From Bacilli bacterium (GTDB lineage Bacteria; Bacillota_I; Bacilli_A; RFN20; CAG-826): a stretch of DNA of 64,000 nucleotides. Location of the stretch: assembly GCA_024408085.1 (NCBI GenBank), contig JAKSVH010000006.1, forward strand, positions 4,740 through 68,739, read 5' to 3'. The position numbers and the translations under genes were made by a program. This document shows, piece by piece, positions 8,878 to 27,309 of the stretch. Below the pieces are notes generated by a model. That model did no database searches and had not been told where the DNA came from. It worked only from the letters and a program-made list of their open reading frames with translations. Numbering within the stretch: the stretch's first letter is position 1; each line of letters opens with the position of its first letter.

Positions 8878-10533
8878 ATGAAAACTTACGAAGATTTAGC
8901 TAATTACATATTCCCAGAAATCAACGAAACTATCGCTGATTTAGAAAAGAAATATCCAGCCAGAAATTTACCAGAAGGCGCAGAAGTTACAAGATTTGCA
9001 CCATCTCCAACTGGATTTTTACATTTAGGTTCATTATTCACCTCTTTAGTTGCTCACAAAGTTGCTAAAGATACAGGTGGTGTTTTTTACTTAAGACTTG
9101 AAGATACTGATACAAAACGTGAAGTGGAAGGTAGTGGCGATGAGCTTGTTCGTCAACTTGCTCACTTTGGTATTGATCCAAAAGAAGGCTACCTTGGCCA
9201 TGATGTTGGCCCTTATGCTCCATATAAACAATCTGAGCGCGCGTACATATATAAAGTCTGTATAAAGGAATTAATGAAGAAGGGTAGAGCTTATCCTTGC
9301 TTCTGCAGTGCTGAACAACTTGAAGAAACAAGACAAATTCAAGAAGCAATGAAAATGATTCCTGGTTATTATGGTGAATATGCTATCTGCCGTACAAATA
9401 CTCCAGATGAAGCAATCGCACGTATTGAAGCTGGCGAACCTTATGTTGTTCGTTTTAAATCAATGGGCAACCATAATAATAAAGTAACATTCCATGATGA
9501 AGTTCGTGGTGATATTTCTATTGCTGAGAACGATATGGACATCGTTATTCTTAAATCTGATGGCCTTCCAACCTATCACTTTGCACATGCTGTTGATGAT
9601 CATTTTATGCACACAACAACAGTCATTCGTGGTGAAGAATGGATCTCATCAGCCCCAATACATATCGAATTATTTGATACTTTAGGCTTTAAATTACCTA
9701 AATACGCTCACTTACCAGTTATCATGAAACTTGATAATGGCAACAAGCGTAAACTTTCAAAGAGAAAAGACCCAGAAGCATCAGTCTCCCACTTTATTGA
9801 AGAAGGTTATCCAAGAGAAGCATTACTCGTTTATTTAATGAGCATTGCAAACTCCAACTTTGAAGAATGGACTGCCGAAAATCATTCATATAATTTAGAT
9901 GAATTTAAGTTTTCGTTCGATAAAATGTCCCTAGACGGTGTTCTTTTTGACCAAGATAAGCTCAATTTCTTCTCAAAGGAAATTATTGCTCAAATGTCTA
10001 ATCAAGAAGTTTATGATAGAGTCTATGAATGGGCAGATGATGAATTCAAAGCCAAGTTAGAAAAATATAAAAAAGAATCTCTTGCAGCATTAAATATTGA
10101 ACGCGGTGGTGAAAAAGCACGTAAAGACTACGCTGCATATAAAGATGTATATCCTATTATTTCCTTATTTTATAAAGAAGATAACGAAAAAGAATTTAAT
10201 GAAATTGGTTGTCAATTTAAACCAGAAATCCCTGGCGATGTTGTAAAAGCTGTTCTTGAAGACTTTAAGAAATCTAATGATTATTCACTCGCAAATGATG
10301 TTTGGTTCAATACAGTTAAAGAATTAGGTGCTAGACACAAATTTGCTGAAAGTGGTAAAATCTTCAAGCAAAATCCTGAAGCATATGTTGGACACGTTGG
10401 TGATGTTGCAGAAATCATCCGTGTCGCAATCACATGCAGAAAGAATACTCCTAACCTTCATGATGTCTTAGTTATTCTAGGCAAAGATGAAGTTGATAGA
10501 AGAATTGATCGCGCTATAGCATCAATCAAATAA
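8878..10533 (+). CDS. gltX: Glutamate--tRNA ligase (long form)
   Basis: Class I motifs are present: RFAPSPTGFLHLGS (HIGH-like) and KLSKRK (KMSKS-like). The ED(T/S)D motif appears as LRLEDTDTKR. The protein is 551 aa. Confidence 0.8.
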   Translation: MKTYEDLANYIFPEINETIADLEKKYPARNLPEGAEVTRFAPSPTGFLHLGSLFTSLVAHKVAKDTGGVFYLRLEDTDTKREVEGSGDELVRQLAHFGIDPKEGYLGHDVGPYAPYKQSERAYIYKVCIKELMKKGRAYPCFCSAEQLEETRQIQEAMKMIPGYYGEYAICRTNTPDEAIARIEAGEPYVVRFKSMGNHNNKVTFHDEVRGDISIAENDMDIVILKSDGLPTYHFAHAVDDHFMHTTTVIRGEEWISSAPIHIELFDTLGFKLPKYAHLPVIMKLDNGNKRKLSKRKDPEASVSHFIEEGYPREALLVYLMSIANSNFEEWTAENHSYNLDEFKFSFDKMSLDGVLFDQDKLNFFSKEIIAQMSNQEVYDRVYEWADDEFKAKLEKYKKESLAALNIERGGEKARKDYAAYKDVYPIISLFYKEDNEKEFNEIGCQFKPEIPGDVVKAVLEDFKKSNDYSLANDVWFNTVKELGARHKFAESGKIFKQNPEAYVGHVGDVAEIIRVAITCRKNTPNLHDVLVILGKDEVDRRIDRAIASIK

Positions 10534-12263: not shown

Positions 12264-13145
12264 ATGAAATTCAAAAAACCAAGAGGAGTGCTATTAGGAA
12301 TTGGCTTCGGTGCATTCGTTGTTGCTGCAGTTTTATTCTTCTTAGTACCAGTAATTCTTGCTGATTTCCAATACAATAGTATGGAAGCAGTGATGGGAGG
12401 ACTTAAAGGATTAATCTCCTTCAATTTTGTTAATGTTCTTTATACAGCATTATTCATTTTATTTGTTCTTGCAATTGCAGTTGTTGTTATTTATGCGGTT
12501 ATGGCTGTTCAAAAGAAACACAAAATTCATCTTCTTGTTGCTTTACTTTCATTAATTTTCGTTTTTGGTTCCTACTTAGTAGTTTCTATTTATTTCCTTG
12601 GCAGCGACATTAATTTTGGTGGTAAAGCTACTGATTCAACAAATTCATTGCTTTCATTAATGTTAGCTTCTGAAAATGCTTTGGGTAAGATTTTATCTTC
12701 ACTCGTTCTTGCATTTGCTGGCGTGTCCAACGTTATGCTTATTGTACACATGTTTGTCGCACTAGTTTCAATGACAGTAACCGAAGAAGTTAAAGCATTC
12801 GAAGAAAAATGCGAAGAAGAAACTAAAAAGGCAATTGAAGAAAAGACTGCAGAACTTGTTGCTTCTCAACCAGCACAAGAAGCAGTTCCTGCTGAAGCAG
12901 GTCCAGTATTCGGAACTATTTTAGCTCCAGAAGTTGAAGCCGATCTTGAAGAACGCAAACGTAAAGAAATGGCATTATTCAAATCAGCAATCGATTCTGG
13001 ATACTTTACAGAATACGAAGAACTTGAATTCCCAGAACCTCTTGAAGGTGTCGAGGAAGAACCAGTTTGTGAAGCCAGTATTGTTGAAGAAAAGACAGCA
13101 TTCATTTCTAAGTCGAGCATTCACGTTGGCTACACACACGATTAA
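12264..13145 (+). CDS. Polytopic membrane protein with acidic C-terminal tail
   Basis: The long ORF has 5-6 hydrophobic segments followed by an E-rich soluble tail. Function is unknown. Confidence 0.4.
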   Translation: MKFKKPRGVLLGIGFGAFVVAAVLFFLVPVILADFQYNSMEAVMGGLKGLISFNFVNVLYTALFILFVLAIAVVVIYAVMAVQKKHKIHLLVALLSLIFVFGSYLVVSIYFLGSDINFGGKATDSTNSLLSLMLASENALGKILSSLVLAFAGVSNVMLIVHMFVALVSMTVTEEVKAFEEKCEEETKKAIEEKTAELVASQPAQEAVPAEAGPVFGTILAPEVEADLEERKRKEMALFKSAIDSGYFTEYEELEFPEPLEGVEEEPVCEASIVEEKTAFISKSSIHVGYTHD

Positions 13146-13205
13146 ATTGTTTTAATATAACTCTTTGAGTTATTTTGAAAATATACAAATTTTGGAGGGC
13201 TTTAT

Positions 13206-13835
13206 ATGAAAAAAGCTAAAAACGCACTTGCGATAGTTGGCATTGTATTCGCCGTTATCGCAGCCGCATTGCTAGTGTTACATCCAGTTATTGACGGAGT
13301 TGCAGCAGCATTATCCGAAGACCCAACCCCAGCTATGGGATTTGGTGAATATCTTGGTCTTGTAACAGGAAGAATTCCACAATTAATTGATTTTGGTTGG
13401 ATTTCTTCATTCTCACTCGATGCATTAAAGATTAACTTCCCAATCATCGTTGCAGCAGTCGGAGTAATTCTTTTAATTGTTTTACTCATTATCATGCTTT
13501 GCAAGAAACACGCCAAAGGTTTAGGCTGGTGGGTTGTTATGCTCGTAATGCTCGCTGTATCAGTCGTAGTTGCATCTGTTTATGTTAAACCAGGCAACTT
13601 CTACGATGTTTACTTTGGAAAAGTACAAGAATTGTCCTACTCAACCTTTGATGTAAATAAGTATTTATTTATCGCAGGTTTAGTTTGCGCAATCGTTGCT
13701 TCCGCAGCAATTATTATTGCTTCAATCTTCTATATGGTTTATGTTTGTAAAGCAAGCAAGAAAGCTAAGAAAGTTGATGATGCAAGAAAAGCTGCACTTG
13801 CTAAGATCGAAAGTCTTTTAGGAGGAAATAACTAA
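13206..13835 (+). CDS. Polytopic membrane protein, unknown function
   Basis: GGAGG RBS is present. There are multiple TM segments, and the architecture resembles the preceding gene. It has a TAATG overlap with the next gene. Confidence 0.4.
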   Translation: MKKAKNALAIVGIVFAVIAAALLVLHPVIDGVAAALSEDPTPAMGFGEYLGLVTGRIPQLIDFGWISSFSLDALKINFPIIVAAVGVILLIVLLIIMLCKKHAKGLGWWVVMLVMLAVSVVVASVYVKPGNFYDVYFGKVQELSYSTFDVNKYLFIAGLVCAIVASAAIIIASIFYMVYVCKASKKAKKVDDARKAALAKIESLLGGNN

Positions 13836-14875
13836 TGGCTACATTAAATGAAAACGAAGCTCGTTTACTTGCAATTAAAGAAGAGCTTTTGAATAAGAAA
13901 GATATTTCTCTTGAAGATATCGAAGCTTTAGACAAAGAAATTTCCGCTCTTGGAGAAGAAAGAGAACAACTTAAAGCAGAAGAAGCTAAAGCAGAAGCTC
14001 CAGTCGCAAAAGCTAGCGAAGAAGCTGCTCCTTCAGCAGAAGCACCTGCTAAAGCAGAAGAAGCTGCACCAGCAGATGAAAATGCTAAAGTTATTAGACG
14101 TATTCTTGTCCATAAGAGTGGCAAAGTTGTCAGAGTCTTAAATGAACATTATTACGATATCACAACCAACGTGTTTGTTGATCAAGGCTACTATGATCCA
14201 AATAGACCAGCTGAAACTGAACAACAACACTATGAAAGACTTATTAACGAAGCTAAGAATGTTTTACAACCAGCACCAGCTCCAGTTGCAGCACCAGCTC
14301 CAGCACCAGCACCTGTTATCGTTGTAACTCAACCACAACCACAAGTCGTTGTTGCACCAGCTTCAGCACCTGCACCAGTTGTAGTCGCTGCTCCAGCTCC
14401 AGCACCTGTTGTTGCACCAGCTCCAGCACCTGCACCAGTTGTAGTCGCTGCTCCAGCTCCAGCAAAAGAAAAAGTCGAACGTATTCCATTTGCTGATCGT
14501 ATGAAACATGCTGAAAAATCATTGAAGTTTGCTTATAACGAAATTAAGTCCGAAATCTTATCTTACGGTCTTAAATCACGTATTTCTATCGCAGGCGATA
14601 CATTCAGATTACACACCAAGACATATGTTATGCTTGTTGTTGCTGGTAAGAGCCTAAAACTCTACTTCGCTTTGGATCCAAAAGATTATAAAGATTCCAA
14701 GATGCCACTCGGTGACGCATCTAAGAAAGTCCTCCACAAAGATACACCACTTGTATTCAAAGTTAAGTCAGACTTATCAGTCCGTAGATGTAAACAACTT
14801 ATCGCTGATTGCTGTGCTAAAGACGGTCTTGAAAAAGGCGAATTTGTCAAACACGATCACGTTAAAGATTTATAA
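13835..14875 (+). CDS. Protein with acidic coiled-coil N-terminus, Ala/Pro-rich (PAPAPV) spacer and basic C-terminal domain
   Basis: The ORF is coupled to the upstream gene. The central low-complexity APAPAPV region contains a 60-bp tandem duplication. No catalytic motif was recognised. Confidence 0.45.
   Translation: MATLNENEARLLAIKEELLNKKDISLEDIEALDKEISALGEEREQLKAEEAKAEAPVAKASEEAAPSAEAPAKAEEAAPADENAKVIRRILVHKSGKVVRVLNEHYYDITTNVFVDQGYYDPNRPAETEQQHYERLINEAKNVLQPAPAPVAAPAPAPAPVIVVTQPQPQVVVAPASAPAPVVVAAPAPAPVVAPAPAPAPVVVAAPAPAKEKVERIPFADRMKHAEKSLKFAYNEIKSEILSYGLKSRISIAGDTFRLHTKTYVMLVVAGKSLKLYFALDPKDYKDSKMPLGDASKKVLHKDTPLVFKVKSDLSVRRCKQLIADCCAKDGLEKGEFVKHDHVKDL
14351..14464 (+). repeat. Near-perfect 60-bp tandem duplication inside the Ala/Pro-rich coding region
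   Basis: 14351-14410 and 14411-14464 are identical except for one base (14362 T versus 14422 C). Confidence 0.9.
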
Positions 14876-14898: not shown

Positions 14899-14927
14899 TA
14901 AAGGTGACCTTCGGGCCACCTTTTTTA
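14899..14927. terminator. Bidirectional intrinsic terminator between convergent genes
   Basis: AAAGGTGACC-TTCG-GGCCACCTTT is flanked by an A-run and a T-run. Confidence 0.65.
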
Positions 14928-15461
14928 GTTACTAATTTTTTCTTTGTACAGTTTATAAATTTCATCACTAGTTTGTTCGATTGTTTTGTTTTCGGTATGA
15001 ATTACATAATCGACTTTTCCAATTTTATCTAGTGAGAAGTCATTGACGTCATTTTCTAGTCGTTTAGTGATATTTTCTTGTTTATCTCCGCGAGATACCA
15101 TTCTTTCATGCCTTGTTTTTTCGTCTGCGATAAGTAAGAATGAGACAACATGTTTATTATTTAATTTTAGGAATGAGTGAAGACCGTTTGGATCTAGGAC
15201 AACAATTTTGTTGTCATCAACCTGGTCTACGCCACAACCATAGTAATTGTCGTTATACAAAGAGTGTTCAACAAATTTACCCTCTTTTAAGCGCTTTTTG
15301 AACTCTTCTTTGCTAATAAAGAAATATTCAATGCCATCAGTCTCGCCAACACGTTTTTCACGAGTAGTGGTTGTGACTGCTTTAACTAGGCCATAACGCT
15401 TTTGTAAATCAAGGGCGGTAACCGTTTTTCCGCTTGCTGATGCACCGACAAGTAAAATCAT
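14925..15461 (-). CDS. Guanylate-kinase-family protein
   Basis: P-loop is GASASGKT. It has TTTTREKRVGETDGIEYFFISKEEF (compare TTRppRpGEvdGvdYhFvs.eeF) and YGCG. The protein is 178 aa. Confidence 0.65.
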   Translation of the reverse strand: MILLVGASASGKTVTALDLQKRYGLVKAVTTTTREKRVGETDGIEYFFISKEEFKKRLKEGKFVEHSLYNDNYYGCGVDQVDDNKIVVLDPNGLHSFLKLNNKHVVSFLLIADEKTRHERMVSRGDKQENITKRLENDVNDFSLDKIGKVDYVIHTENKTIEQTSDEIYKLYKEKISN

Positions 15462-15590
15462 AAAATTTATTATACTCGAAATTAAAAATCAAAAAAATGC
15501 AAAAAAAGAGACTTATAAATAAGTCTAAAAAAATTTTCATCGAAAATGCGAAATGGTACTGCAATTTGTATATAGGAGGACATTTATTTT

Positions 15591-15911
15591 ATGGCACGTA
15601 ATAGTTATGACGGATCCTATATAAGATTTTCAGAGATGGAGACAATTGCAAAAGTCTATTTTGAAAAAGCCAAATATTACAAAAGCAACGGAAGCCCAAA
15701 AACTGAAAAGGTAAATAATAAAATGCTTACGATTGGCAAAATAGATAAAGCATGTAATGTACTTTGCGATCCATACAAAACAATTATTAGAAACACATTT
15801 TTTGAAAAGAAAAATTTGTACTGGTGGGAACAGTATTATTCAAAAACCACTTATTATCGTTTAAGGAACAAGGCTATTAAAACATTTTTATTAGCATACA
15901 AATTACAATGA
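15591..15911 (+). CDS. Small putative transcription regulator, sigma-70 region-4 / ArpU-like HTH
   Basis: Strong GGAGGA RBS is present. The C-terminal segment YKTIIRNTFFEKKNLYWWEQYYSKTTYYRLRNKAIKTFLLAY resembles region 4.2-type HTH (S.sTyYR.r.kAl..f). It has an ATGA overlap with the next gene. Confidence 0.4.
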   Translation: MARNSYDGSYIRFSEMETIAKVYFEKAKYYKSNGSPKTEKVNNKMLTIGKIDKACNVLCDPYKTIIRNTFFEKKNLYWWEQYYSKTTYYRLRNKAIKTFLLAYKLQ

Positions 15912-16861
15912 AAACATCATTAAAACTTTTATTATTATCAACTTTGACCGCGATGAGTGGAATAGGGGCAGGAACTGATACAAATTCCGGTGTTTATTCT
16001 CTTAAATGCACTCCTTTTTATCGTGCAGGTATTAATTCAAAGATTTCTTTTAATGTTAGAGCATCAAAAATGAATAAAGTAATTGTTACAGTGGATATAG
16101 TCAATGATTTATTTAAAGACGGAATAACTATTTATAAAAAAACTTACACTGCTGCTGGTAGTGCAAATATTTCTTATAACAATAGTTATACTAGAAGTAG
16201 CGGAAACATATTGCGAATAAAGCAAGGGACATCAAAAGGAAATAAAACAATTGAATGTGAAATCAATGTTGCTAAAAGCAGCACAACTGTTATAGGTGAT
16301 TCAATTTATAATTTTGAATCCAGTTCTTATTATTATTCATATTCAAATAGTGGCTGGTCAAAAAATAAGGAAAAGATAAGTTTTTATAACTTTGAAGATT
16401 GTTATATGCCAACTTACTATCACCAAATAGACTTTTCGAATTTTTACATTAAATTGAATGAAACTCTAGATACTTCAAATATAAGTTGTGAAAACGCAGT
16501 CTTTGGAATTACAAATAAAAATGGAATATTTAATTCTTTTGAGCACGATTCTGAATTAGCTTACTTTCCGCTAACTTTTGAACAAAAAGATAAATCTTTT
16601 TTCTTAAAGCTGAAAAATGTTTTATATGTTAATCCCTTAACACAAGAAATGTCTGCGACTCAAAAAACTAATTTTGTTAAAACTAGATTGATTTATTTAC
16701 CGAGAAACGAAAAAAGATATGAGGATGAGTATAATTGTTATATTTCTTTAGAAGGTTTCGGAATAGATAGAGCTGATTTTTTAACAAACTTTAAATATAA
16801 ATCTTTATTAAATACTTTTGGAGACTGTCGCAACAGTGAATATTGCATAGTTAATAGTTAA
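15908..16861 (+). CDS. Exported protein of unknown function (first structural gene of the pilus-like operon)
   Basis: It has a signal-peptide-like N-terminus MKTSLKLLLLSTLTAMSGIGAG without a lipobox Cys. Composition is N/S/Y-rich, and no motif was recognised. Confidence 0.5.
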   Translation: MKTSLKLLLLSTLTAMSGIGAGTDTNSGVYSLKCTPFYRAGINSKISFNVRASKMNKVIVTVDIVNDLFKDGITIYKKTYTAAGSANISYNNSYTRSSGNILRIKQGTSKGNKTIECEINVAKSSTTVIGDSIYNFESSSYYYSYSNSGWSKNKEKISFYNFEDCYMPTYYHQIDFSNFYIKLNETLDTSNISCENAVFGITNKNGIFNSFEHDSELAYFPLTFEQKDKSFFLKLKNVLYVNPLTQEMSATQKTNFVKTRLIYLPRNEKRYEDEYNCYISLEGFGIDRADFLTNFKYKSLLNTFGDCRNSEYCIVNS

Positions 16862-16862
16862 T

Positions 16863-17264
16863 ATGACAAATTGTATCTTCTATTCACTATTTTTTGTTTT
16901 GTTTCTAAACATGTCGTTTGGATCTTTGAGAATGTCACAAGTTAATAGAGTTTTTATGTCAACATACAAAGGAATGTATGAAGCTTGTGCTGTTACTGTA
17001 GGCAATGATGGAGAACCAATTTATCCGTACTTTGATAAAAATATCTTAACAAATTATGTAACAAACTTTATTGGCGAAAATGTAAGAAAATTCGTCCCGT
17101 CCTATGACTTAAGCATCAAATTTTACACACTGGGTGGGACTTATGAATGCCAAGAGAACGATTTAGCAAGAACTGTAAAAGTAAGTTTAAAGGCAAATAT
17201 TAACTATCTATTTACATTTAATAAAGAACAAACTATTTCAATTGAAGAAAGGAGTGCCGTATGA
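16863..17264 (+). CDS. Small protein with N-terminal hydrophobic segment (possible TadE/TadF-like pseudopilin)
   Basis: Hydrophobic N-terminus is MTNCIFYSLFFVLFLNMSFGS and the protein is 133 aa. It starts 1 nt after the upstream stop and has an ATGA overlap downstream. The assignment rests on architecture only. Confidence 0.35.
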   Translation: MTNCIFYSLFFVLFLNMSFGSLRMSQVNRVFMSTYKGMYEACAVTVGNDGEPIYPYFDKNILTNYVTNFIGENVRKFVPSYDLSIKFYTLGGTYECQENDLARTVKVSLKANINYLFTFNKEQTISIEERSAV

Positions 17265-18214
17265 ACGAAAAATTAATTAACTATATAGAAAATTCATTTC
17301 TAAAAGATTTGATAAGTTCAGAAGGAGTTACAGATATTTCCTATAACGGCTCTAGTTTTTTCTATTTGCATAATGTTGAAGGCAGAAAGAAATCAGATTT
17401 AATTGTTTCAAACAGTGGAGTTTTGGATTTTCTAAGACAAATTGCAAATTTTTCAGAAAAACAATTTTCGGTCTCTACACCTTTCTTAGATATTTCGGTT
17501 GGAAGATACCGTATAAATGCTGTTCATACATCAATAGGTAGGGTTAGCAATGAAAAAGCGTGTACATTTGCAATAAGAATTGGCTCTGAACAATCTCGAG
17601 TAATTGATGATTTAGATTTTATTGATGAAAAGTGTAGGAAATACTTATTTAAAGCTATAGAGGATGAAAAGTCGATTGTTATTTGTGGGCCTACCGGAAG
17701 TGGAAAGACAGAATTGCAGAAATTTCTTCTTTTAAACCTAAAAGACAATACCAGGGTCATCATTATTGATAACGTTGAAGAATTAGAGAACATACGAATT
17801 AATGACAAGATAGATGTCTCTAGTTGGCAGATTTCTGAAAATAATTTAAATTCATCAATCCAAGAACTTGTTAGGAACGCTTTAAGAAGTAATCCAGACT
17901 GGATTGTTATTGCGGAGTCAAGAGGCAAAGAAATGAACGAAATATTAAATAGCATTATGACAGGGCATCCAATCATCACGACTTTACATGCAGAAAAATT
18001 AGAAGATATACCTTTACGTATTTGTAGAATGGTGGAGATGGCTGACATCACTCAGAAGCATGAAAGCATTTTAAATGACATTTATGAGCACGTAAAAGTA
18101 TGTGTTTTTCTAAATAGAAAGTTTGATTCTGATAAAGGAGTTAAACGTTATGTTGAATCGATTGGCGAGCTTCAAAAAGATCACACTATGAAATTGATTT
18201 ATAGGAGGTCATAG
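17261..18214 (+). CDS. TadA/CpaF/VirB11-family secretion ATPase (T2SSE domain)
   Basis: Walker A is CGPTGSGKT (nt 17683-17710) and Walker B-like is RVIIIDNVEE. It has the AESRGKE (GEvRG.Ea-like) motif, the His box TGHPIITTLHA, and an N-terminal GVTDISYNG (vtEI.vNg-like) segment. Confidence 0.8.
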   Translation: MNEKLINYIENSFLKDLISSEGVTDISYNGSSFFYLHNVEGRKKSDLIVSNSGVLDFLRQIANFSEKQFSVSTPFLDISVGRYRINAVHTSIGRVSNEKACTFAIRIGSEQSRVIDDLDFIDEKCRKYLFKAIEDEKSIVICGPTGSGKTELQKFLLLNLKDNTRVIIIDNVEELENIRINDKIDVSSWQISENNLNSSIQELVRNALRSNPDWIVIAESRGKEMNEILNSIMTGHPIITTLHAEKLEDIPLRICRMVEMADITQKHESILNDIYEHVKVCVFLNRKFDSDKGVKRYVESIGELQKDHTMKLIYRRS

Positions 18215-18215
18215 A

Positions 18216-18920
18216 ATGATAGGGATAGTTATTGGATTCATTGTTTTATCTTTGGTAAGTGGGGTCTTGTGTTTTTTAACAACCTCAAATTTATACTTTG
18301 CGATAGGAATCTTTTTGATTTTTATCCTATATTTCTTTATCTTCCAGTATAAGAAATTTAACAAATACTATTCATTAGTAAGAAGAGTCCATTCCTGTTA
18401 CTTTTTTATCAACTCATTTGTGGTCACTTTGTCTGTAAAAGAGTCTTATGAAGAAGGGTTCAAAAGTGGTTTGAGAGTCCAAGATTCTAAGTTGCATTTT
18501 TATGCAAATGAATTAAGTGAATTAAATGATTACGAGAAAGTGAAGTACTTAAGAAATTATTTTCAGTTAGCAATATATAAAATGTTCCTGAATGTTCTAG
18601 AAATTTACCAGGATCAAGGAGGAAATATTTTGAATATGTCCGATAATCTCATCCGAGAGTGTACAAGAACAGAAAAAACACTCTTAGATTCATACAATTT
18701 AGGTATCAAGCATTTAATAGAATTTATTGTTCTTTGGGCATTATCGTTTGGCGTTTTGTTGTTTCTAAAATTTGGCATTGGCGATTTCTACAATAAGATG
18801 TTAAATAATCCTATTTTTGCGCCTCTAATTTTGGCCTTCTTTTTAATCTTCTTGTTATCTATTCATTTTTTCTTAAAATCTTTTACCAATTTGTCAGTAA
18901 AGGAGGATGTTGTTGAATGA
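18216..18920 (+). CDS. TadB-like inner-membrane platform protein (T2SSF-like, half-size)
   Basis: GGAGG RBS is present. TM segments lie at both ends around a cytoplasmic helical domain (YFQLAIYKMFLNVLEIYQDQGGNILNMSDNL), as in T2SSF/TadB. Confidence 0.5.
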   Translation: MIGIVIGFIVLSLVSGVLCFLTTSNLYFAIGIFLIFILYFFIFQYKKFNKYYSLVRRVHSCYFFINSFVVTLSVKESYEEGFKSGLRVQDSKLHFYANELSELNDYEKVKYLRNYFQLAIYKMFLNVLEIYQDQGGNILNMSDNLIRECTRTEKTLLDSYNLGIKHLIEFIVLWALSFGVLLFLKFGIGDFYNKMLNNPIFAPLILAFFLIFLLSIHFFLKSFTNLSVKEDVVE

Positions 18921-19585
18921 AAAAAATAATTAGTCAAATTAAACGTTTGGGCTTATCAGTTAAGAAAGAATTTATTATTTTTGGCATTATCAATTTTCTA
19001 TTAATTGCCGGTTCGATTTGTTTAGGAATATTCGAGAAAAAGGGGGTATTTTTCGCATTTGGTCCAGGATTTGCAGTGGTTTTTTCAATTCTGTATTTGT
19101 CACGATACGGTACTTTGATAAACAAAATTAATAGTGATAACTTAATTGAATTTTCTGAACTGTTTGGGTTCTTTAGAATTTATATTAAGAATGGTTATAA
19201 CGTCTACAATTCACTCAAGGAAATTTCGTATTTCGCGAACGAAAAATTGAAAGAATTATTAACAAAATTATTAGCTGAAATTGATAGTGATAAATCTGTT
19301 CAACCGTTCATTAATTTTTCATCAAATTTTGACGAAATAATTGTTGAAGAATTGATGATTTCTATTTACCAAATGATTGATGAAGGCGAACAGTCAAATT
19401 ATCTCTCTCAATTTGAATTAATTTTTGATAAATTTTCTGAGGCTTTAACTCAAAAGGAATTGAAGAAAAAGGACTCAAAATTAGGAACTCTTTCTAGCGC
19501 TCCATTAATTGGTTCTTCTTTTTTAATTATTGTTATTACCGTTGGTATTATTGGCCTGATTGGAGACATCATCAATGGGATATAA
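18917..19585 (+). CDS. TadC-like inner-membrane platform protein (T2SSF-like, half-size)
   Basis: AAGGAGG RBS and an ATGA overlap are present. The central segment IKNGYNVYNSLKEIS...LLAEIDSDKSVQPFINFSSNF....IYQMIDEGEQ fits the T2SSF pattern. It has a C-terminal TM segment. Confidence 0.55.
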   Translation: MKKIISQIKRLGLSVKKEFIIFGIINFLLIAGSICLGIFEKKGVFFAFGPGFAVVFSILYLSRYGTLINKINSDNLIEFSELFGFFRIYIKNGYNVYNSLKEISYFANEKLKELLTKLLAEIDSDKSVQPFINFSSNFDEIIVEELMISIYQMIDEGEQSNYLSQFELIFDKFSEALTQKELKKKDSKLGTLSSAPLIGSSFLIIVITVGIIGLIGDIINGI

Positions 19586-19916
19586 ATTAGGCTTTATTTT
19601 GTCGTTATTATTAGTTGTAGAATTGTTCATTTTGGCAGGAGATCTTTTCTCTGCCCAAGTGATATATACCAATTTAGATGCTGTTAGTATTACAGCGGGG
19701 AACATTATTTCTTCAAAGGGAGGTATAACAAATGAAGTTAGAACATTTGTTGCCAACAATACCGGAGGCGAAATAATCGCAGTTGGAGATGACGCTCCAT
19801 TATTTGGATCAGTTTATACTTTCAAAATCTTCAAAAGCTATCAACCTATGAATTTCTTTATTGGCGAATCGGAAATTTCTGTAGTCCGCAGTGTCGTAAT
19901 TGGCTATTACAATTAG
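19575..19916 (+). CDS. TadE-like pseudopilin candidate
   Basis: The ATG at 19575 has a GGAGA RBS (the track start 19560 is TTG). The N-terminus MGYKLGFILSLLLVVELFILAGDLF resembles the TadE hydrophobic/VE(F/L) segment. The protein is 113 aa. Confidence 0.4.
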   Translation: MGYKLGFILSLLLVVELFILAGDLFSAQVIYTNLDAVSITAGNIISSKGGITNEVRTFVANNTGGEIIAVGDDAPLFGSVYTFKIFKSYQPMNFFIGESEISVVRSVVIGYYN

Positions 19917-19929
19917 AAAGGAGTTTATT

Positions 19930-20133
19930 ATGTCTGAAGTAAAAGGTACTTTACTAACCATCATTCTTGTATTAGCTGTATTTGCATCAATATTTACCAT
20001 TGTAACTCTTGCTATCGAAAGAAAAGCAAATGATGTTTCAAGTAAAATTGAACATGCAGGTGAGCCAACTGCGCAAGCTGCTCAACCAGCAGCTGGTGCT
20101 GCCGCAGCTAATTCATTAGTTTATCATTATTAA
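19930..20133 (+). CDS. Flp-like mini-pilin candidate (67 aa)
   Basis: AAAGGAG RBS is present. A short charged leader MSEVKG precedes a 23-residue hydrophobic helix TLLTIILVLAVFASIFTIVTLAI and an A/Q/P-rich tail. Size and architecture match Flp pilins, but the E-Y residues of the Flp motif are absent. Confidence 0.4.
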   Translation: MSEVKGTLLTIILVLAVFASIFTIVTLAIERKANDVSSKIEHAGEPTAQAAQPAAGAAAANSLVYHY

Positions 20134-20146
20134 GATAATGTATAAG

Positions 20147-20167
20147 GGAGGCTCTGCCTCCTTTTTT
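20147..20167 (+). terminator. Intrinsic terminator ending the pilus-like operon
   Basis: GGAGGC-TCT-GCCTCC is followed by TTTTTT. Confidence 0.75.
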
Positions 20168-20236
20168 CTACAACTTTATAAAATACTTTATTTTTATATG
20201 CTATGTGATACAATAATCACACGTTGAGGTAAATTT

Positions 20237-24520: not shown

Positions 24521-25222
24521 ATGAAGATAAAATCGGTGATTTTTATATCATTTATATCATTGTTTACTTTATGCGGTTGTAGTAACCAATCTCATAAAAC
24601 TTATAATGTAAAATTTGAGGGTGATCAAACTATTAACCACTTAAAGTATTTAGGTAAAAATACCGCATCTAGTGATGATGATTTTACGATGTCTTTTGCA
24701 ATTGATTACAATTATGAGTTATTAATTGATAACATTAATGTTTCTATTAACGGCATACAGAATGATGATTGTTGGTCATTTTTGTATCAGACAAATGTTA
24801 AAAATATTTTTACTATAAATAAAAATTTCATTAATGGAGATTTATCTATTAATGCTTTTGCAACTTATAGAACCTCAACCCCAAGTGAATACGGATATAT
24901 TTTTGATGATGAAATCACAAACATTTGTGATTGTAGGTTCTCTGATGATAGACAACCAAAATTTATCCCAACTTTAGATCAAGTTGCTTATCCAGTTATG
25001 GAGGATGATCCTATTGAGGTAATAATTACTTTAAAAGATGGAATTCTTTATGAAGGTGACGCTAAAAGAATAATGGACAATATTTGGTTTAGGACTAATG
25101 CCAGATACACATTATTAGGAGAAGATTTTTTCAAAACTTATAGTAATGATTTTAGAGAATGCCGCATTCGCGTTCCTCATTATATAATAAGAGATCATGG
25201 GTCTTTTAAAGTGAAAAGTTGA
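24521..25222 (+). CDS. Lipoprotein, unknown function
   Basis: Signal peptide with lipobox is SLFTLCGCS. The gene is AT-rich and its stop overlaps the next ORF. Confidence 0.55.
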   Translation: MKIKSVIFISFISLFTLCGCSNQSHKTYNVKFEGDQTINHLKYLGKNTASSDDDFTMSFAIDYNYELLIDNINVSINGIQNDDCWSFLYQTNVKNIFTINKNFINGDLSINAFATYRTSTPSEYGYIFDDEITNICDCRFSDDRQPKFIPTLDQVAYPVMEDDPIEVIITLKDGILYEGDAKRIMDNIWFRTNARYTLLGEDFFKTYSNDFRECRIRVPHYIIRDHGSFKVKS

Positions 25223-25236
25223 AAAGAGAATTAAAA

Positions 25237-27309
25237 ATGTTCAGAAACAAACATAGAAAATTACTACTTATAAATATAGCTTTATTATCTCTTGCAAGCT
25301 GTGGTGTGCCTGCTGGCCCAAGTGATGATGGCAAGGATTTTGTTACTATTAGAAATAACTATAAATCTTATATGCTAGAGCATCAAGGAACCGGCTACTT
25401 TAAAGATAAGACCATTAAAGAAATAAAGGAAATGCTAACCGAGAAAGACATTGGAGGAATTAAAACATATTTTTTCAATGATATTGATTATACTGATGAT
25501 CAGGATAGAAGTTCTTGGCCTGCCGGAAATCATTTAGGACGAACTTTACAATTAACTGTATTAGCAAATAAAACTAACAACTCTGAACTTAAAGATATTT
25601 CATTAAAATGTCTTTATCATTGGATTTATAGCAATTATAGAAATACTAATTGGTGGCAAAATGAAATTGGTGCCAATCAAAATTTGTCAAATATTGCAAT
25701 GTTTTCTTTCGATGATTTAACAAAAAAAGGTCAAGATGCATTATTAGGAAAACTTTATGAAAGTAGCATTTATCATCGCCCTTCTTTATCTACTCATGAA
25801 GGTTCGAATCTTTTGAATTATTGTGAAATGACTATTAAATGTGCTGCTTTAGAAAAAAATTATAAAGAAATTGATACCGCTTTAGAGTGCACCTCAAAAA
25901 CAATTACTCAGAATGGTGTTGAGGGATATCAACCTGATGGTAGTTTTTTCCAACATGGTACATTGCTTCAAACAGGAAGTTATGGAATTGAAGGCACAAC
26001 AAAAATAGCAAATGTAATTACTATGCTTAAAGGTACAAATAAATCATTACCTACGGATAAAATGGATATTATTTCTAATTTTATATTAAATGGTTTAAAA
26101 CCTATGACTTACAAAGGAATGTATAATTACATGGCTGTAGGTAGAGCCTATTCTAGAGTTGACTCTTTAGATGTTGAATTGGGTTCATATAAAGTTAGCG
26201 ACATGAAGAAATTTACCGCTTTGTCTAATATGCCTAAAAAAGACGAAATTGATAAATATATTGACGATGTAGTTAATAAAACCGCCACTTGCTATATCGA
26301 AGAAACTGAAGCATACGAAAATTCTAAAGTTCTTGTTGGAAATTTCGATGATGTTTATATGTGCTTTAAAGGCTCTGATTCAAATGCAGTAAATACTGAA
26401 TGCGTTAATCATGAAAATTCACTCGGATATAATTTTTCATATGGTCAAAATACATGTGTCATGCAAAGTGGTAAAGAGTATTTTAATATTTCTCCTATTT
26501 GGGATTATACAGAAACACCAGGAGCAACTTCACGAGATTTTGGTGGTGGAACAATTTTAGAAAAAGATCAACAAATTGATAAATATGTAAAGGAAACTCT
26601 AGACAATGGTTTATACGAAGAAAAGCTCGCAAAAATCAATCCAAATACTGGAAAATCGTGTATTTTTAATATTGGTAAACAAGATGGAATAAGCTATAGC
26701 ATGACTCAATCAGTTCATGACATTACAACCAAGAATATTTCTGGAGGGGTTGAATTTACTTCGACTTGTTTTATGACTAATGAAGGTATGATTGTTTTGG
26801 GTGCAGGTTTAGGCAATAAACAAGCAGATCTTCCTGAAAGCGAAAAAATACTTCACACATCATTAGAACAATGTCGACTATATGAAGATGATGAGATTCC
26901 AACCATTTCCGAAGATAATTTAAGCGTAAAAAAAGGCAAAGTTGTTTATTCATCACTAGATAATCAACCTCTTGCTTTAAAAATAGAAGATAGAACATAT
27001 AATTGGCAAAGAAATAATCCTTCTTTAGCATCAAAAATTGAATCAGGAAAAGTGGCTTCTATCACTTTAAATGACGCTCGCGATAAGAATTTTGATCATT
27101 ATGCTTACGCAGTTCAACCAGCAAATAAATTTGCTATGAATTCCATTAGTGTCGTATACAATACTCCGAAAGCAGCTGCCATTGAATTAACTGATGGAAC
27201 TTTAGTTGCCTGTTTTTATGAGAATGAACCATTTGTCTATTCTGGAAAAGAATATAAGCCTTCCTATTTTGATGTTAATAAAGGAAGTTTTGAAATTTTT
27301 TATAATTAA
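25237..27309 (+). CDS. Polysaccharide lyase family 8-like lipoprotein (hyaluronate/chondroitin/xanthan lyase family)
   Basis: Lipobox is LLSLASCG after the ATG at 25237. It has NWWQNEIGANQNL (PL8 N-terminal NWW..EIG motif). It also has QPDGSFFQHGTLLQTGSYG, where His and Tyr are 9 residues apart, matching my recollection of the catalytic His/Tyr pair in streptococcal hyaluronate lyases. Confidence 0.65.
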   Translation: MFRNKHRKLLLINIALLSLASCGVPAGPSDDGKDFVTIRNNYKSYMLEHQGTGYFKDKTIKEIKEMLTEKDIGGIKTYFFNDIDYTDDQDRSSWPAGNHLGRTLQLTVLANKTNNSELKDISLKCLYHWIYSNYRNTNWWQNEIGANQNLSNIAMFSFDDLTKKGQDALLGKLYESSIYHRPSLSTHEGSNLLNYCEMTIKCAALEKNYKEIDTALECTSKTITQNGVEGYQPDGSFFQHGTLLQTGSYGIEGTTKIANVITMLKGTNKSLPTDKMDIISNFILNGLKPMTYKGMYNYMAVGRAYSRVDSLDVELGSYKVSDMKKFTALSNMPKKDEIDKYIDDVVNKTATCYIEETEAYENSKVLVGNFDDVYMCFKGSDSNAVNTECVNHENSLGYNFSYGQNTCVMQSGKEYFNISPIWDYTETPGATSRDFGGGTILEKDQQIDKYVKETLDNGLYEEKLAKINPNTGKSCIFNIGKQDGISYSMTQSVHDITTKNISGGVEFTSTCFMTNEGMIVLGAGLGNKQADLPESEKILHTSLEQCRLYEDDEIPTISEDNLSVKKGKVVYSSLDNQPLALKIEDRTYNWQRNNPSLASKIESGKVASITLNDARDKNFDHYAYAVQPANKFAMNSISVVYNTPKAAAIELTDGTLVACFYENEPFVYSGKEYKPSYFDVNKGSFEIFYN

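What the first reader, a model, noticed from the sequence alone, without database searches (positions are those of the whole stretch)
15591..20167. Compact, translationally coupled Tad/Flp-like (type IVc) pilus-like operon with unknown exported components
Eight genes are packed head to tail, with ATGA overlaps at 15908, 17261 and 18917, 1-nt gaps at 16862 and 18215, and an 11-nt overlap at 19575. A clean terminator closes the operon at 20147-20167. The core is a 317-aa TadA/CpaF/VirB11-type ATPase (GPTGSGKT, IIIDNVEE, ESRGKE, TGHPIITTLHA) followed by two half-size T2SSF-like platform proteins, which is the Tad arrangement rather than the single full-length ComGB/PilC one. Two small proteins with N-terminal hydrophobic helices follow it, one TadE-like of 113 aa and one Flp-sized of 67 aa. 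A 317-aa exported N/S/Y-rich protein and a 133-aa protein, neither with a recognisable motif, precede it. No TadZ, CpaB/RcpC, secretin or A24 prepilin peptidase is visible anywhere in the 64 kb. Single 60-nt lines inside the locus are markedly AT-richer (16261-16320: 17/60 GC; 18301-18360: 14/60) than lines in glmM (4441-4500: 22/60) or gltX (9121-9180: 28/60), which hints at horizontal acquisition. If the host is wall-less or Acholeplasma-like, as the rest of the window suggests, a minimal filament or secretion machine of this kind would be poorly described.
Basis: partly seen in the sequence, partly recalled or inferred. Interest (0 to 1): 0.8.

Follow-up and report, generated by a model that had tools for sequence, protein, structure and literature searches.

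The report
Divergent minimal Tad-like pilus operon
An eight-gene operon that uncultured small-genome gut Bacilli all keep at the same chromosomal spot most likely builds a thin type IV (Tad/archaeal-like) filament, and it is so divergent that standard family models miss most of its parts.

Summary
In detail: eight head-to-tail genes (15591-20133, +) with the stated overlaps and gaps, closed by a terminator hairpin.

What it most likely is: a minimal, very divergent type IV filament machine.
- g4 is a 317-aa T2SSE-superfamily ATPase.
- g5 and g6 are half-size GspF/TadB-like platform proteins. This shows only in profile-profile and fold comparison, not in Pfam.
- g7 is a 113-aa minor-pilin-like protein.
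- g8 is a 67-aa pilin with an invariant MSE(I/V)KG|Q leader.
- g2 is an exported protein with two beta-sandwich domains. g3 is a membrane-anchored unknown. g1 is probably a small transcriptional regulator.

It is not a canonical Tad system. There is no Flp motif, TadZ or prepilin peptidase in the window or in 80 related genome loci, and the ATPase lies outside CpaF, VirB11 and TrbB.

It was not recently acquired. The arrangement gmk | operon | acpP recurs in most of 80 related genomes (uncultured gut Bacilli MAGs, RF39-type by my recollection) down to 44% ATPase identity. Third-codon GC is ordinary.

Its closest annotated relatives are collinear, unannotated modules around the "VirB11-like" ATPase of Gram-positive conjugative plasmids (pAW63/pXO2, Listeria, Enterococcus).

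Verdict: a new variant of a known kind. The biological function (adhesion, DNA uptake or cell contact) is inferred, not shown.

The parts
15462..15590 (+). Intergenic region between the divergent gmk gene (14925-15461, minus strand) and g1. It presumably holds the operon promoter and contains the g1 ribosome-binding site AGGAGGA at 15574-15580.
   Evidence: Sequence read. No convincing sigma-70 consensus site was found, so the promoter is inferred from position only.
15591..15911 (+). g1, 106 aa. A small cytoplasmic protein, probably a transcriptional regulator. Its C-terminal ~55 residues belong to the MG284/MPN403 family and resemble ArpU/DUF1492.
   Evidence: NCBIfam NF045770 at 3.4e-20, above its cut-off. 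ArpU (0.006) and DUF1492 (0.13) hits are weak. The conserved WW..YS..TfYR motif is seen in 29 orthologues. A gene of this size holds this position in 58 of 68 loci. DNA binding is inferred.
15908..16861 (+). g2, 317 aa. A fast-evolving exported protein (a lipoprotein in some relatives) with two beta-sandwich domains and a conserved C-terminal GDCxNSxYC motif. Candidate adhesin or filament-associated surface protein.
   Evidence: N-terminal signal peptide, with a lipobox in some orthologues, and the conserved C-terminal half are seen. AlphaFold model has pLDDT 84. Fold matches are generic only (arrestin/Vps26, transglutaminase C-terminal domains, TM-score below 0.27). No Pfam or NCBIfam family. 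The role is inferred.
16863..17264 (+). g3, 133 aa. Has an N-terminal hydrophobic helix and no charged leader. Role unknown: it could be a pilin-sized accessory protein or a membrane tether for the ATPase. Translationally coupled to g4.
   Evidence: No family in any of 35 members. No relation to g7 or to TadE/F. A similar-sized, membrane-anchored gene precedes the ATPase in the plasmid modules, but the homology is not significant.
17261..18214 (+). g4, 317 aa. A T2SSE/VirB11-superfamily ATPase of minimal N2 + C-terminal-domain size, taken to be the motor.
   Evidence: Pfam T2SSE at 2.4e-23. NCBIfam best hits are a TadA-family model (118 bits) and VirB11 (115 bits), all far below cut-offs. Against PDB: VirB11 4.5e-23, archaeal GspE 1.8e-22, FlaI 8e-19, CpaF 1.8e-14. 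The NJ tree places it in a separate clade, sister to the Gram-positive plasmid ATPases.
18216..18920 (+). g5, 234 aa. A half-size platform protein that resembles TadB.
   Evidence: hhalign against canonical TadB: 91% probability, E = 1e-6, 201 columns. Against the first plasmid membrane protein: 84%. Remote paralogue of g6 (79%, E = 1.6e-5). Sub-threshold Pfam T2SSF hits in 9 of 55 members.
18917..19585 (+). g6, 222 aa. The second half-size platform protein, in the TadC position.
   Evidence: Model pLDDT 95. The top nine PDB fold hits are all EpsF/OutF/PilC cytoplasmic domains (probability 0.97-0.99, target TM-score 0.57-0.65). Sub-threshold Pfam T2SSF hits in 17 of 54 members. hhalign against the second plasmid membrane protein: 96%, E = 6e-9.
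19575..19916 (+). g7, 113 aa. A minor-pilin-like protein with leader M-x-x-K-x-G followed by a hydrophobic helix. Resembles TadF only weakly.
   Evidence: Conserved N-terminus. Pfam TadF sub-threshold in 13 of 45 members, best 2.4e-4. hhalign against the plasmid ~120-aa protein: 87%, E = 3.8e-6. No match to five proteobacterial TadE/F sequences.
19930..20133 (+). g8, 67 aa. Putative major pilin: a six-residue leader MSEVKG, then a ~23-residue hydrophobic helix starting with Thr (Gln in most relatives), then a variable polar tail. Preceded by a strong ribosome-binding site.
   Evidence: M1, E3, K5, G6, L8 and F18 are invariant in 37 diverse orthologues. RBS AAAGGAG at 19917-19923. No Flp_Fap hit in any member. 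No hhalign relation to Flp. The pattern matches archaeal Epd pilins except that it lacks their conserved +5 Glu (PMC3875500). Cleavage and polymerisation are inferred.
20144..20170 (+). Intrinsic terminator that closes the operon.
   Evidence: GGGAGGC-UCU-GCCUCC followed by U6. Free energy -13.4 kcal/mol, z = -2.87 against shuffles.

Best explanation
The operon most likely encodes a minimal, highly divergent type IV filament machine of the Tad / archaeal Epd kind. It is a vertically inherited core locus of a lineage of small-genome gut Bacilli known only from MAGs (RF39-type by my recollection).

Proposed mechanism:
1. The g4 ATPase, presumably a hexamer, docks on a membrane platform formed by the two half-size GspF/TadB-like proteins g5 and g6.
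2. ATP-driven movements of the platform lift g8 subunits out of the membrane and stack them into a thin helical filament made almost only of their hydrophobic N-terminal helices.
3. Before assembly, the six-residue leader of g8 (MSE-I/V-K-G) would be removed by a class III signal peptidase encoded elsewhere in the genome.
4. g7, and possibly g3, act as low-abundance priming or tip subunits.
5. The exported two-domain beta-sandwich protein g2 is the likely adhesive or surface-associated partner.
6. g1 is the likely transcription regulator.
7. As in Tad systems, the single ATPase would have to drive both extension and any retraction.

Shown here: the operon structure, its conservation, the ATPase superfamily, the remote platform homology and fold, and the pilin-like N-termini.

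Inferred: leader cleavage, filament formation, the roles of g1-g3, and the biological use. I favour attachment or cell contact in the gut, with DNA uptake as the next possibility.
For: Operon structure: the tight head-to-tail operon is confirmed.

ATPase: g4 carries a T2SSE domain.

Platform proteins:
- g5 matches canonical TadB by hhalign at 91%, E = 1e-6, over 201 columns.
- The g6 model (pLDDT 95) has all of its top nine fold hits on GspF/PilC/OutF cytoplasmic domains.
- g5 and g6 are remote paralogues.
- T2SSF is the most recurrent Pfam hit for g6 members and the second most recurrent for g5 members.
- The gene order ATPase, platform, platform matches tadA-tadB-tadC, and two single-T2SSF platform genes are the hallmark of Tad and Epd systems (PMC6668835).

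Pilin-like proteins:
- g8 has an invariant K-G junction with Gln or Thr at +1 and a size of 47-70 aa across relatives. This matches archaeal Epd and Gram-positive Flp-like pilins (PMC3875500).
- g7 gives recurrent TadF hits.

Conservation:
- ATPase, g5, g6 and g7 orthologues were found in nearly all of the 80 genome loci whose contig reaches them; gmk flanks 62 and acpP 61, with most gaps on short contigs.
- The three upstream genes are conserved by position in 58 of 68 loci.
- This argues for selection on the whole unit.

No conjugation genes turned up in the window ORFs scanned or among the called genes of the two flanks inspected.
Against: - No prepilin (A24 / class III) peptidase was found in the 64-kb window or within +/-10 kb of 80 related loci.
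- TadZ is absent.
- g8 lacks the +5 Glu and the Flp motif, and has no detectable homology to Flp.
- Neither platform protein reaches the Pfam T2SSF cut-off.
- g6 aligns poorly with canonical TadB and TadC (27% and 6%).
- g7 shows no profile-profile match to proteobacterial TadE/F.
- The ATPase scores as well against VirB11 as against Tad or archaeal ATPases.
- No archaeal reference sequences could be put in the tree.
- There are no expression or microscopy data.
Confidence: 0.65

Rival explanations
1. It is a conjugation-derived module. The operon would be a domesticated copy of the 'VirB11-like' module of Gram-positive conjugative plasmids. It would mediate cell-to-cell contact or DNA transfer between cells rather than adhesion to surfaces.
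For: - The closest annotated ATPases lie on conjugative plasmids of Bacillus, Listeria and Enterococcus: 25-35% identity, E = 3e-42 to 3e-22, against 1e-17 or weaker for Tad, VirB11 and TrbB.
- These plasmids carry a collinear module next to VirD4-like genes. This is pAW63 CDS 23-19 (PMC1196294).
- Four consecutive genes are homologous: the ATPase, and g5 to plasmid P1, g6 to plasmid P2, and g7 to the ~120-aa protein.
- The lineage's clade and the plasmid clade are sisters with 100% bootstrap.
Against: - No relaxase, VirD4, VirB4 or replication genes turned up in the window ORFs scanned or among the called genes of the two flanks inspected.
- The locus sits between gmk and acpP in most of the 80 related genomes. 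That points to long vertical inheritance, and the direction of any transfer is unknown.
- The plasmid module itself looks like a type IV filament module, not a T4SS part. A current review states that Gram-positive T4SSs lack VirB11 (PMC12857230).
Confidence: 0.15
2. It is a DNA-uptake (competence) pseudopilus. The filament would bind and retract extracellular DNA, substituting for ComG in these reduced genomes. Flp/Tad pili do this in Micrococcus luteus and Liberibacter.
For: - Tad-type pili are required for transformation in M. luteus (PMC4322843) and for DNA uptake in Liberibacter (PMC8513845); both were listed.
- Strict conservation as a core locus in small, probably auxotrophic genomes fits a nutritional or genetic uptake role.
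- No ComG-type genes are present in the window.
Against: - No ComEA, ComEC, ComF or DprA genes turned up in the window ORFs scanned or among the called genes of the two flanks inspected. ORFs at 24.5-27.3 kb that looked like possible ComE genes gave no family (24521-25222) and a PL8 lyase (25219-27309).
- ComGA is a much weaker match than TadA or VirB11 (58 against 118 bits).
- Whether these genomes encode ComEC or ComG elsewhere could not be tested.
Confidence: 0.12
3. It is a secretion or surface-assembly device, comparable to a T2SS pseudopilus or the archaeal bindosome. It would export or display g2 rather than build a long filament.
For: - g2 is an exported two-domain beta-sandwich protein encoded inside the operon and conserved by position.
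- The archaeal bindosome ATPase BasE appears among the NCBIfam hits (2.3e-17).
- In the plasmid modules, large surface adhesins sit just upstream.
Against: - g2 has an ordinary Sec or lipoprotein signal peptide, not a class III one, so it needs no special exporter.
- Monoderm cells have no outer membrane to cross.
- g8 has the size and strong ribosome-binding site expected of an abundant structural subunit.
Confidence: 0.06

Closest known systems
Tad / Flp (type IVc) pilus systems (TadA/CpaF, TadB, TadC, Flp, TadE/F, TadV, TadZ)
   Same: - The gene order ATPase, platform, platform.
- Two half-size platform proteins, each with one GspF-like domain. g5 matches TadB by hhalign at 91%.
- A single ATPase.
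- A very small major subunit, and a ~110-aa subunit with weak TadF similarity.
- No secretin, as in Tad systems of monoderm bacteria.
   Different: - The ATPase has no CpaF N-terminal extension, fails all curated cut-offs and branches outside CpaF.
- The pilin has no Flp motif, no Glu at +5 and no Tyr at +6.
- There is no TadZ/CpaE and no TadV in the locus.
- Pilin genes lie downstream of the platform genes.
- Three extra upstream genes (g1-g3) have no Tad counterpart.
The 'VirB11-like' module of Gram-positive conjugative plasmids (pAW63 CDS 23-19, pXO2, Listeria pLM5578, E. faecium pEMA120, B. velezensis pDSYZ)
   Same: - Collinear layout: a ~125-aa membrane-anchored protein, the ATPase, two ~250-aa membrane proteins, a ~120-aa protein and small hydrophobic proteins.
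- Homology across the ATPase, both membrane proteins and the ~120-aa protein.
- The ATPase clades are sisters with 100% bootstrap.
- The two plasmid platform proteins scanned likewise give no Pfam T2SSF hit at E up to 0.1.
   Different: - The plasmid ATPases are 410-475 aa, with an N-terminal extension.
- The plasmid modules sit next to VirD4 and other transfer genes, large adhesins and a VirB2-like gene.
- The window operon is chromosomal, lies between gmk and acpP, and has no transfer genes nearby.
- g8, g1 and g2 have no detectable plasmid homologues.
- The function of the plasmid module is itself uncharacterised.
Archaeal Epd (EppA-dependent) pili of Methanococcus maripaludis
   Same: - Two single-domain platform genes and short pilins (PMC6668835).
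- A class III leader of 5-13 residues ending in Gly, with Gln at +1 (PMC3875500). g8 has a six-residue leader ending K-G, followed by Gln or Thr.
- Against PDB, the ATPase profile scores better on archaeal GspE and FlaI than on CpaF.
   Different: - Epd pilins keep Glu at +5, whereas g8 has Ile/Val/Met there.
- No EppA-like peptidase or FlaH-like protein is present in the locus.
- No archaeal sequences were available for direct comparison, so the relation rests on shared features only.
ComG competence pseudopilus of Firmicutes
   Same: It is a monoderm type IV filament operon in Bacilli, with an ATPase followed by platform and pilin genes.
   Different: - ComGB is a full-length protein with two domains.
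- ComGC-type pilins are about 100 aa and carry Glu at +5.
- ComGA is a weak match (58 bits against a cut-off of 300).

Membership tests
Tad / Flp type IVc pilus | The ATPase belongs to the TadA/CpaF family. | tested here: not met
   The T2SSE domain is present. However, the TadA-family model scores 118 bits against a cut-off of 373. CpaF is only 1.8e-14 in PDB, against VirB11 at 4.5e-23. The NJ tree places it outside a CpaF clade that has 100% support.
Tad / Flp type IVc pilus | Two adjacent platform genes (TadB, TadC), each with a single T2SSF domain. | tested here: met
   Met only at the level of remote homology. g5 matches TadB by hhalign at 91%, E = 1e-6. The g6 fold matches GspF/PilC cytoplasmic domains. 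g5 and g6 are paralogues. Pfam T2SSF stays below its cut-off in all members.
Tad / Flp type IVc pilus | An Flp pilin with the G|xxxxEY Flp motif (Pfam Flp_Fap). | tested here: not met
   No Flp_Fap hit in 37 members. hhalign against Flp gives 1.6% probability. There is no Glu at +5 or Tyr at +6. Only the size and a short leader ending in Gly are shared.
Tad / Flp type IVc pilus | A TadV prepilin peptidase (A24). | tested here: inconclusive
   Absent from the 64-kb window and from +/-10 kb around 80 related loci, by motif scan, phmmer and Pfam. The rest of the genome could not be searched.
Tad / Flp type IVc pilus | A TadZ/CpaE ParA-like protein encoded next to the ATPase. | tested here: not met
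   No gene of this kind is in the operon. phmmer with TadZ and CpaE finds nothing in the window or the loci.
Tad / Flp type IVc pilus | TadE/TadF pseudopilins. | tested here: inconclusive
   For g7, 13 of 45 members hit Pfam TadF below threshold, best 2.4e-4. There is no hhalign match to five proteobacterial TadE/F sequences.
Type IV secretion system (VirB11/TrbB as part of a conjugation apparatus) | The ATPase is accompanied by VirB4, a coupling protein (VirD4) and a relaxase. | tested here: not met
   None of these turned up in the Pfam scans of window ORFs or among the called genes of the two flanks inspected. The VirB11 model scores 115 bits against a cut-off of 250. The ATPase falls outside the VirB11 and TrbB branches.
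ComG competence pseudopilus | ComGA, a full-length two-domain ComGB, and ComGC-type pilins with Glu at +5. | tested here: not met
   The ComGA model scores 58 bits against a cut-off of 300. The platform is split into two half-size genes. The pilin is 67 aa and has no Glu at +5.
Archaeal Epd-like pili | Split platform genes, short pilins with a class III leader and Gln at +1, and an EppA peptidase. | tested here: inconclusive
   The split platform and the leader with Gln/Thr at +1 are present (PMC3875500). Glu at +5 is absent. No peptidase was found. No archaeal sequences were available for a direct test.
SpoIIIA sporulation channel (SpoIIIAA ATPase, GspF-like SpoIIIAB) | A SpoIIIAA-family ATPase together with SpoIIIAB through SpoIIIAH. 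| tested here: not met
   SpoIIIAA scores 19.5 bits against a cut-off of 281. SpoIIIAB appears only as one of several structures sharing the GspF-like fold (ranks 10 and 12). There are no AE, AG or AH-like genes in the operon.

The most novel reading that the evidence does not exclude
The operon of this gut Bacilli lineage and the unannotated genes around the 'VirB11-like' ATPase of Gram-positive conjugative plasmids (pAW63/pXO2, Listeria, Enterococcus and Bacillus plasmids) may together form a distinct, so far unrecognised family of type IV filament machines. Current T2SSF, Flp and TadE models do not detect it.

This family may work without a linked A24 prepilin peptidase. That would mean either unprocessed subunits or a different protease; CPBP/CAAX-type intramembrane proteases lie near two of the plasmid modules.

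If so, some Gram-positive conjugative plasmids would carry a mating pilus analogous to the thin pilus of IncI plasmids. A whole lineage of reduced-genome gut bacteria would keep the chromosomal version as a core organelle.
Probability: 0.35. Interest if true: 0.75.

Novelty: new variant of a known kind. Interest (0 to 1): 0.55.

Why it matters
These Bacilli are abundant in human and animal guts, have small genomes and are known almost only from metagenomes. A surface filament machine that the related genomes examined keep at the same locus is probably central to how they attach, meet other cells or take up material.

The machine is invisible to standard annotation. Six of its eight proteins reach no curated Pfam or NCBIfam cut-off; only the ATPase and the C-terminal domain of g1 do. 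Surveys of type IV filaments that require a T2SSF hit will therefore miss it.

The link to the long-puzzling 'VirB11' genes of Gram-positive conjugative plasmids gives a testable idea for what those genes do.

Tried and rejected
- **Recent horizontal acquisition.** Rejected: synteny is conserved across most of 80 genomes and GC3 is ordinary.
- **A second, paralogous locus in the same MAG (L029).** Rejected: it carries its own gmk and acpP, so the bin most likely mixes two species.
- **ComE genes at 24.5-27.3 kb.** Rejected: 24521-25222 gave no family and 25219-27309 is a PL8 polysaccharide lyase.
- **A divergent prepilin peptidase among the window's unknown membrane proteins.** None found: no family hits and no Asp motifs in the two sequences read.
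- **Profiles of g1, g5, g6, g7 and g8 against PDB sequences.** Nothing significant.
- **g3.** No Pfam family in 35 members, and no relation to g7, to TadE/F or to the plasmid pre-ATPase protein.
- **g2 fold search.** Only generic beta-sandwich matches.
- **SpoIIIA-like reading.** Rejected.
- **Literature searches** for this lineage (searched as RF39) with pili or competence, and for MG284/MPN403. Nothing relevant was found.

Full report
**1. The observation**

The ORF table shows eight plus-strand genes between 15591 and 20133.

| Gene | Coordinates | Length |
|---|---|---|
| g1 | 15591-15911 | 106 aa |
| g2 | 15908-16861 | 317 aa |
| g3 | 16863-17264 | 133 aa |
| g4 | 17261-18214 | 317 aa |
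| g5 | 18216-18920 | 234 aa |
| g6 | 18917-19585 | 222 aa |
| g7 | 19575-19916 | 113 aa |
| g8 | 19930-20133 | 67 aa |

- Good ribosome-binding sites precede g1, g7 and g8.
- A GC-rich hairpin followed by a U-run at about 20144-20170 folds at -13.4 kcal/mol, z = -2.9. The simple consensus scan did not list it.
- The quoted ATPase motifs are all present.
- The operon is AT-richer than the window, at 30.4% against 33.7% GC. Its third-codon-position GC is no lower than that of other genes. The difference therefore reflects amino-acid content, not foreign codon usage.

**2. Where it comes from and how conserved it is**

- The ATPase has hundreds of close relatives in metagenomes.
- Metagenomic contigs at 61-65% ATPase identity show the same eight genes between a divergent guanylate kinase gene and acpP.
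- A scan of one genome per species found 193 relatives. The window is 99% identical to a horse-faeces MAG labelled 'Bacilli bacterium'. The others are gut and rumen MAGs named Bacilli, 'uncultured Erysipelotrichaceae/Mollicutes', Ca. Fiminaster, Ca. Onthovivens and Ca. Enteromonas. That these correspond to the GTDB order RF39 is my own recollection, not a tool result.
- In the 80 genome loci fetched, ATPase, g5, g6 and g7 orthologues were found in nearly all loci whose contig reaches them, down to 44% ATPase identity. gmk flanks 62 of them and acpP 61, and most gaps are on short contigs.
- Genes of the sizes of g1, g2 and g3 occupy the upstream slots in 58 of 68 loci.
- This is a vertically inherited core locus, so the hint of horizontal acquisition is not supported.
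- A 'second locus' in the same MAG (L029) has its own gmk and acpP. It most likely reflects a bin that mixes two species.

**3. What the parts are**

*g4 (ATPase).* It has a T2SSE domain (2.4e-23) but fails every curated family threshold. The scores are a TadA-family model 118 bits, VirB11 115, FlaI 84, TrbB 81 and ComGA 58. Against solved structures, VirB11 (4.5e-23) and an archaeal GspE (1.8e-22) score about equally, ahead of FlaI (8e-19) and CpaF (1.8e-14).

*g5 and g6 (platform proteins).*
- Neither gives a significant Pfam hit. T2SSF is nevertheless the most recurrent sub-threshold family for g6 members (17 of 54) and the second most recurrent for g5 members (9 of 55).
- The two are remote paralogues (79% probability, E = 1.6e-5).
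- A high-confidence model of g6 (pLDDT 95) has the cytoplasmic domains of EpsF, OutF and PilC as its top nine fold matches (probability 0.97-0.99).
- With canonical Tad loci fetched from plasmids, g5 aligns to TadB profile-to-profile at 91% probability, E = 1e-6, over 201 columns.
- They are therefore half-size platform proteins, the arrangement that defines Tad and archaeal Epd systems (PMC6668835).
- The g6 family is small, with only 226 cluster representatives in 1.84 billion proteins.

*g8 (putative major pilin).* It has an N-terminus MSE(I/V)KG followed by Q or T and about 23 hydrophobic residues. M1, E3, K5, G6, L8 and F18 are invariant across 37 diverse orthologues, while the polar tail varies. 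This matches the archaeal Epd class III signal pattern: a leader of 5-13 residues ending in Gly, Gln at +1, and very small mature pilins. [quoted passage not shown]

*g7 (minor-pilin-like).* It has a similar short leader (M-x-x-K-x-G). TadF hits recur below threshold in 13 of 45 members.

*g3.* It starts directly with a hydrophobic helix and matches nothing.

*g2.* It is a fast-evolving exported protein, a lipoprotein in some relatives. It is modelled as two beta-sandwich domains (pLDDT 84) with only generic fold matches.

*g1.* Its C-terminal domain belongs to the MG284/MPN403 family (3.4e-20) and resembles ArpU/DUF1492 weakly, so a regulatory role is likely.

**4. What is missing**

No A24 peptidase, TadZ/CpaE, CpaB/RcpC or secretin was found in the window or in about 1.2 Mb of related flanks. 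A peptidase elsewhere in the genome cannot be excluded. [quoted passage not shown]

**5. The closest relatives**

- tblastn against plasmids shows that the nearest annotated ATPases are the 'CpaF/VirB11 family' proteins of Gram-positive conjugative plasmids. They are B. velezensis pDSYZ (35% identity, 3e-42), Listeria pLM5578 (2e-35), E. faecium pEMA120 (3e-25) and pXO2 (3e-22).
- These are far ahead of a canonical Tad ATPase (1e-17), CpaF (1e-9 to 1e-13), VirB11 (1e-12) and TrbB.
- These plasmids carry a collinear set of unannotated genes: a ~125-aa membrane-anchored protein, the ATPase, two ~250-aa membrane proteins, a ~120-aa protein and small hydrophobic proteins. The set lies next to VirD4-like genes. 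It corresponds to CDS 23-19 of pAW63 (PMC1196294).
- Profile comparisons link g5 to the first plasmid membrane protein (84%), g6 to the second (96%, E = 6e-9) and g7 to the ~120-aa protein (87%).
- In a neighbour-joining tree, the lineage's ATPases and the plasmid ATPases are sister clades. Each clade has 100% support, and the split from Tad, TrbB and VirB11 also has 100% support. No archaeal sequences could be included.
- A 2025 review states that Gram-positive T4SSs universally lack VirB11 (PMC12857230). The plasmid module therefore looks like an unrecognised type IV filament module rather than a T4SS part.

**6. Interpretation**

The best-supported reading is a minimal Tad/Epd-like type IV filament machine. 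It consists of a motor (g4), a split platform (g5 and g6), a major subunit (g8), a minor subunit (g7), accessory surface and anchor proteins (g2 and g3) and a regulator (g1).

Leader cleavage, filament formation and the biological role are inferences.

- I favour attachment or cell contact in the gut.
- DNA uptake is a live alternative that needs whole-genome data.
- A conjugation-derived role is possible given the plasmid relatives. It is disfavoured by the core chromosomal position and by the lack of transfer genes in the scans made.

**7. Verdict**

The locus is a new, strongly divergent variant of a known kind of machine. Its interest is moderate. It rises if the family shared by these chromosomes and the Gram-positive plasmids proves to be a distinct filament class that works without a classical prepilin peptidase.

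Noticed in passing
L087:8403-12262, L088:8398-12611, L089:4636-9745, L090:4646-9783 (Gram-positive conjugative plasmids): The genes around the 'VirB11-like' ATPase of pDSYZ, pLM5578, pEMA120 and pXO2 are annotated as hypothetical. They nevertheless form a collinear Tad-like module with two platform-like proteins and a minor-pilin-like protein. They also include conserved ~48-aa hydrophobic proteins starting MLDQNTDR. Large adhesins lie upstream, and a TrbC/VirB2-like gene lies downstream in two of the plasmids. This may be an unrecognised pilus module of Gram-positive conjugation.
   Followed up: partly
L088:14718-15419 and L089:1-96: CAAX/CPBP-type intramembrane protease genes lie near the plasmid modules, which have no A24 prepilin peptidase. 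They are a speculative candidate for an alternative subunit-processing enzyme.
   Followed up: no
L007 and L029 (contigs JAKSVG010000011.1 and JAKSVG010000014.1 of MAG Horse_feces353): The same MAG holds two versions of the whole gmk | operon | acpP locus with only 49% ATPase identity. The bin therefore probably mixes two related species.
   Followed up: partly
window 15591-15911: The C-terminal domain of g1 belongs to a family named after the Mycoplasma genitalium/pneumoniae proteins MG284/MPN403 (3.4e-20). No literature on the function of that family was found.
   Followed up: partly
window 12264-14875: Three consecutive plus-strand ORFs just upstream of gmk have no Pfam family. Two are four-TM membrane proteins (293 and 209 aa). 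The third is a 346-aa protein with long Pro-Ala-Pro-Val repeats.
   Followed up: no
window 25219-27309: A family 8 polysaccharide lyase (hyaluronate/chondroitin-lyase type), which fits a host-glycan-degrading gut lifestyle.
   Followed up: no
window 16774-16861 (C-terminus of g2) and orthologues: A GDCxNSxYC motif at or near the C-terminus is conserved across very divergent g2 proteins. The model has low confidence there. Its purpose is unknown (a disulfide, metal binding or a sorting signal are possibilities).
   Followed up: no
window 20088-20133 (C-terminus of g8) and close orthologues: Many g8 tails end in an aromatic Y-H-Y/F or similar motif after an Ala/Pro-rich stretch, although the tail is otherwise variable.
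   Followed up: no
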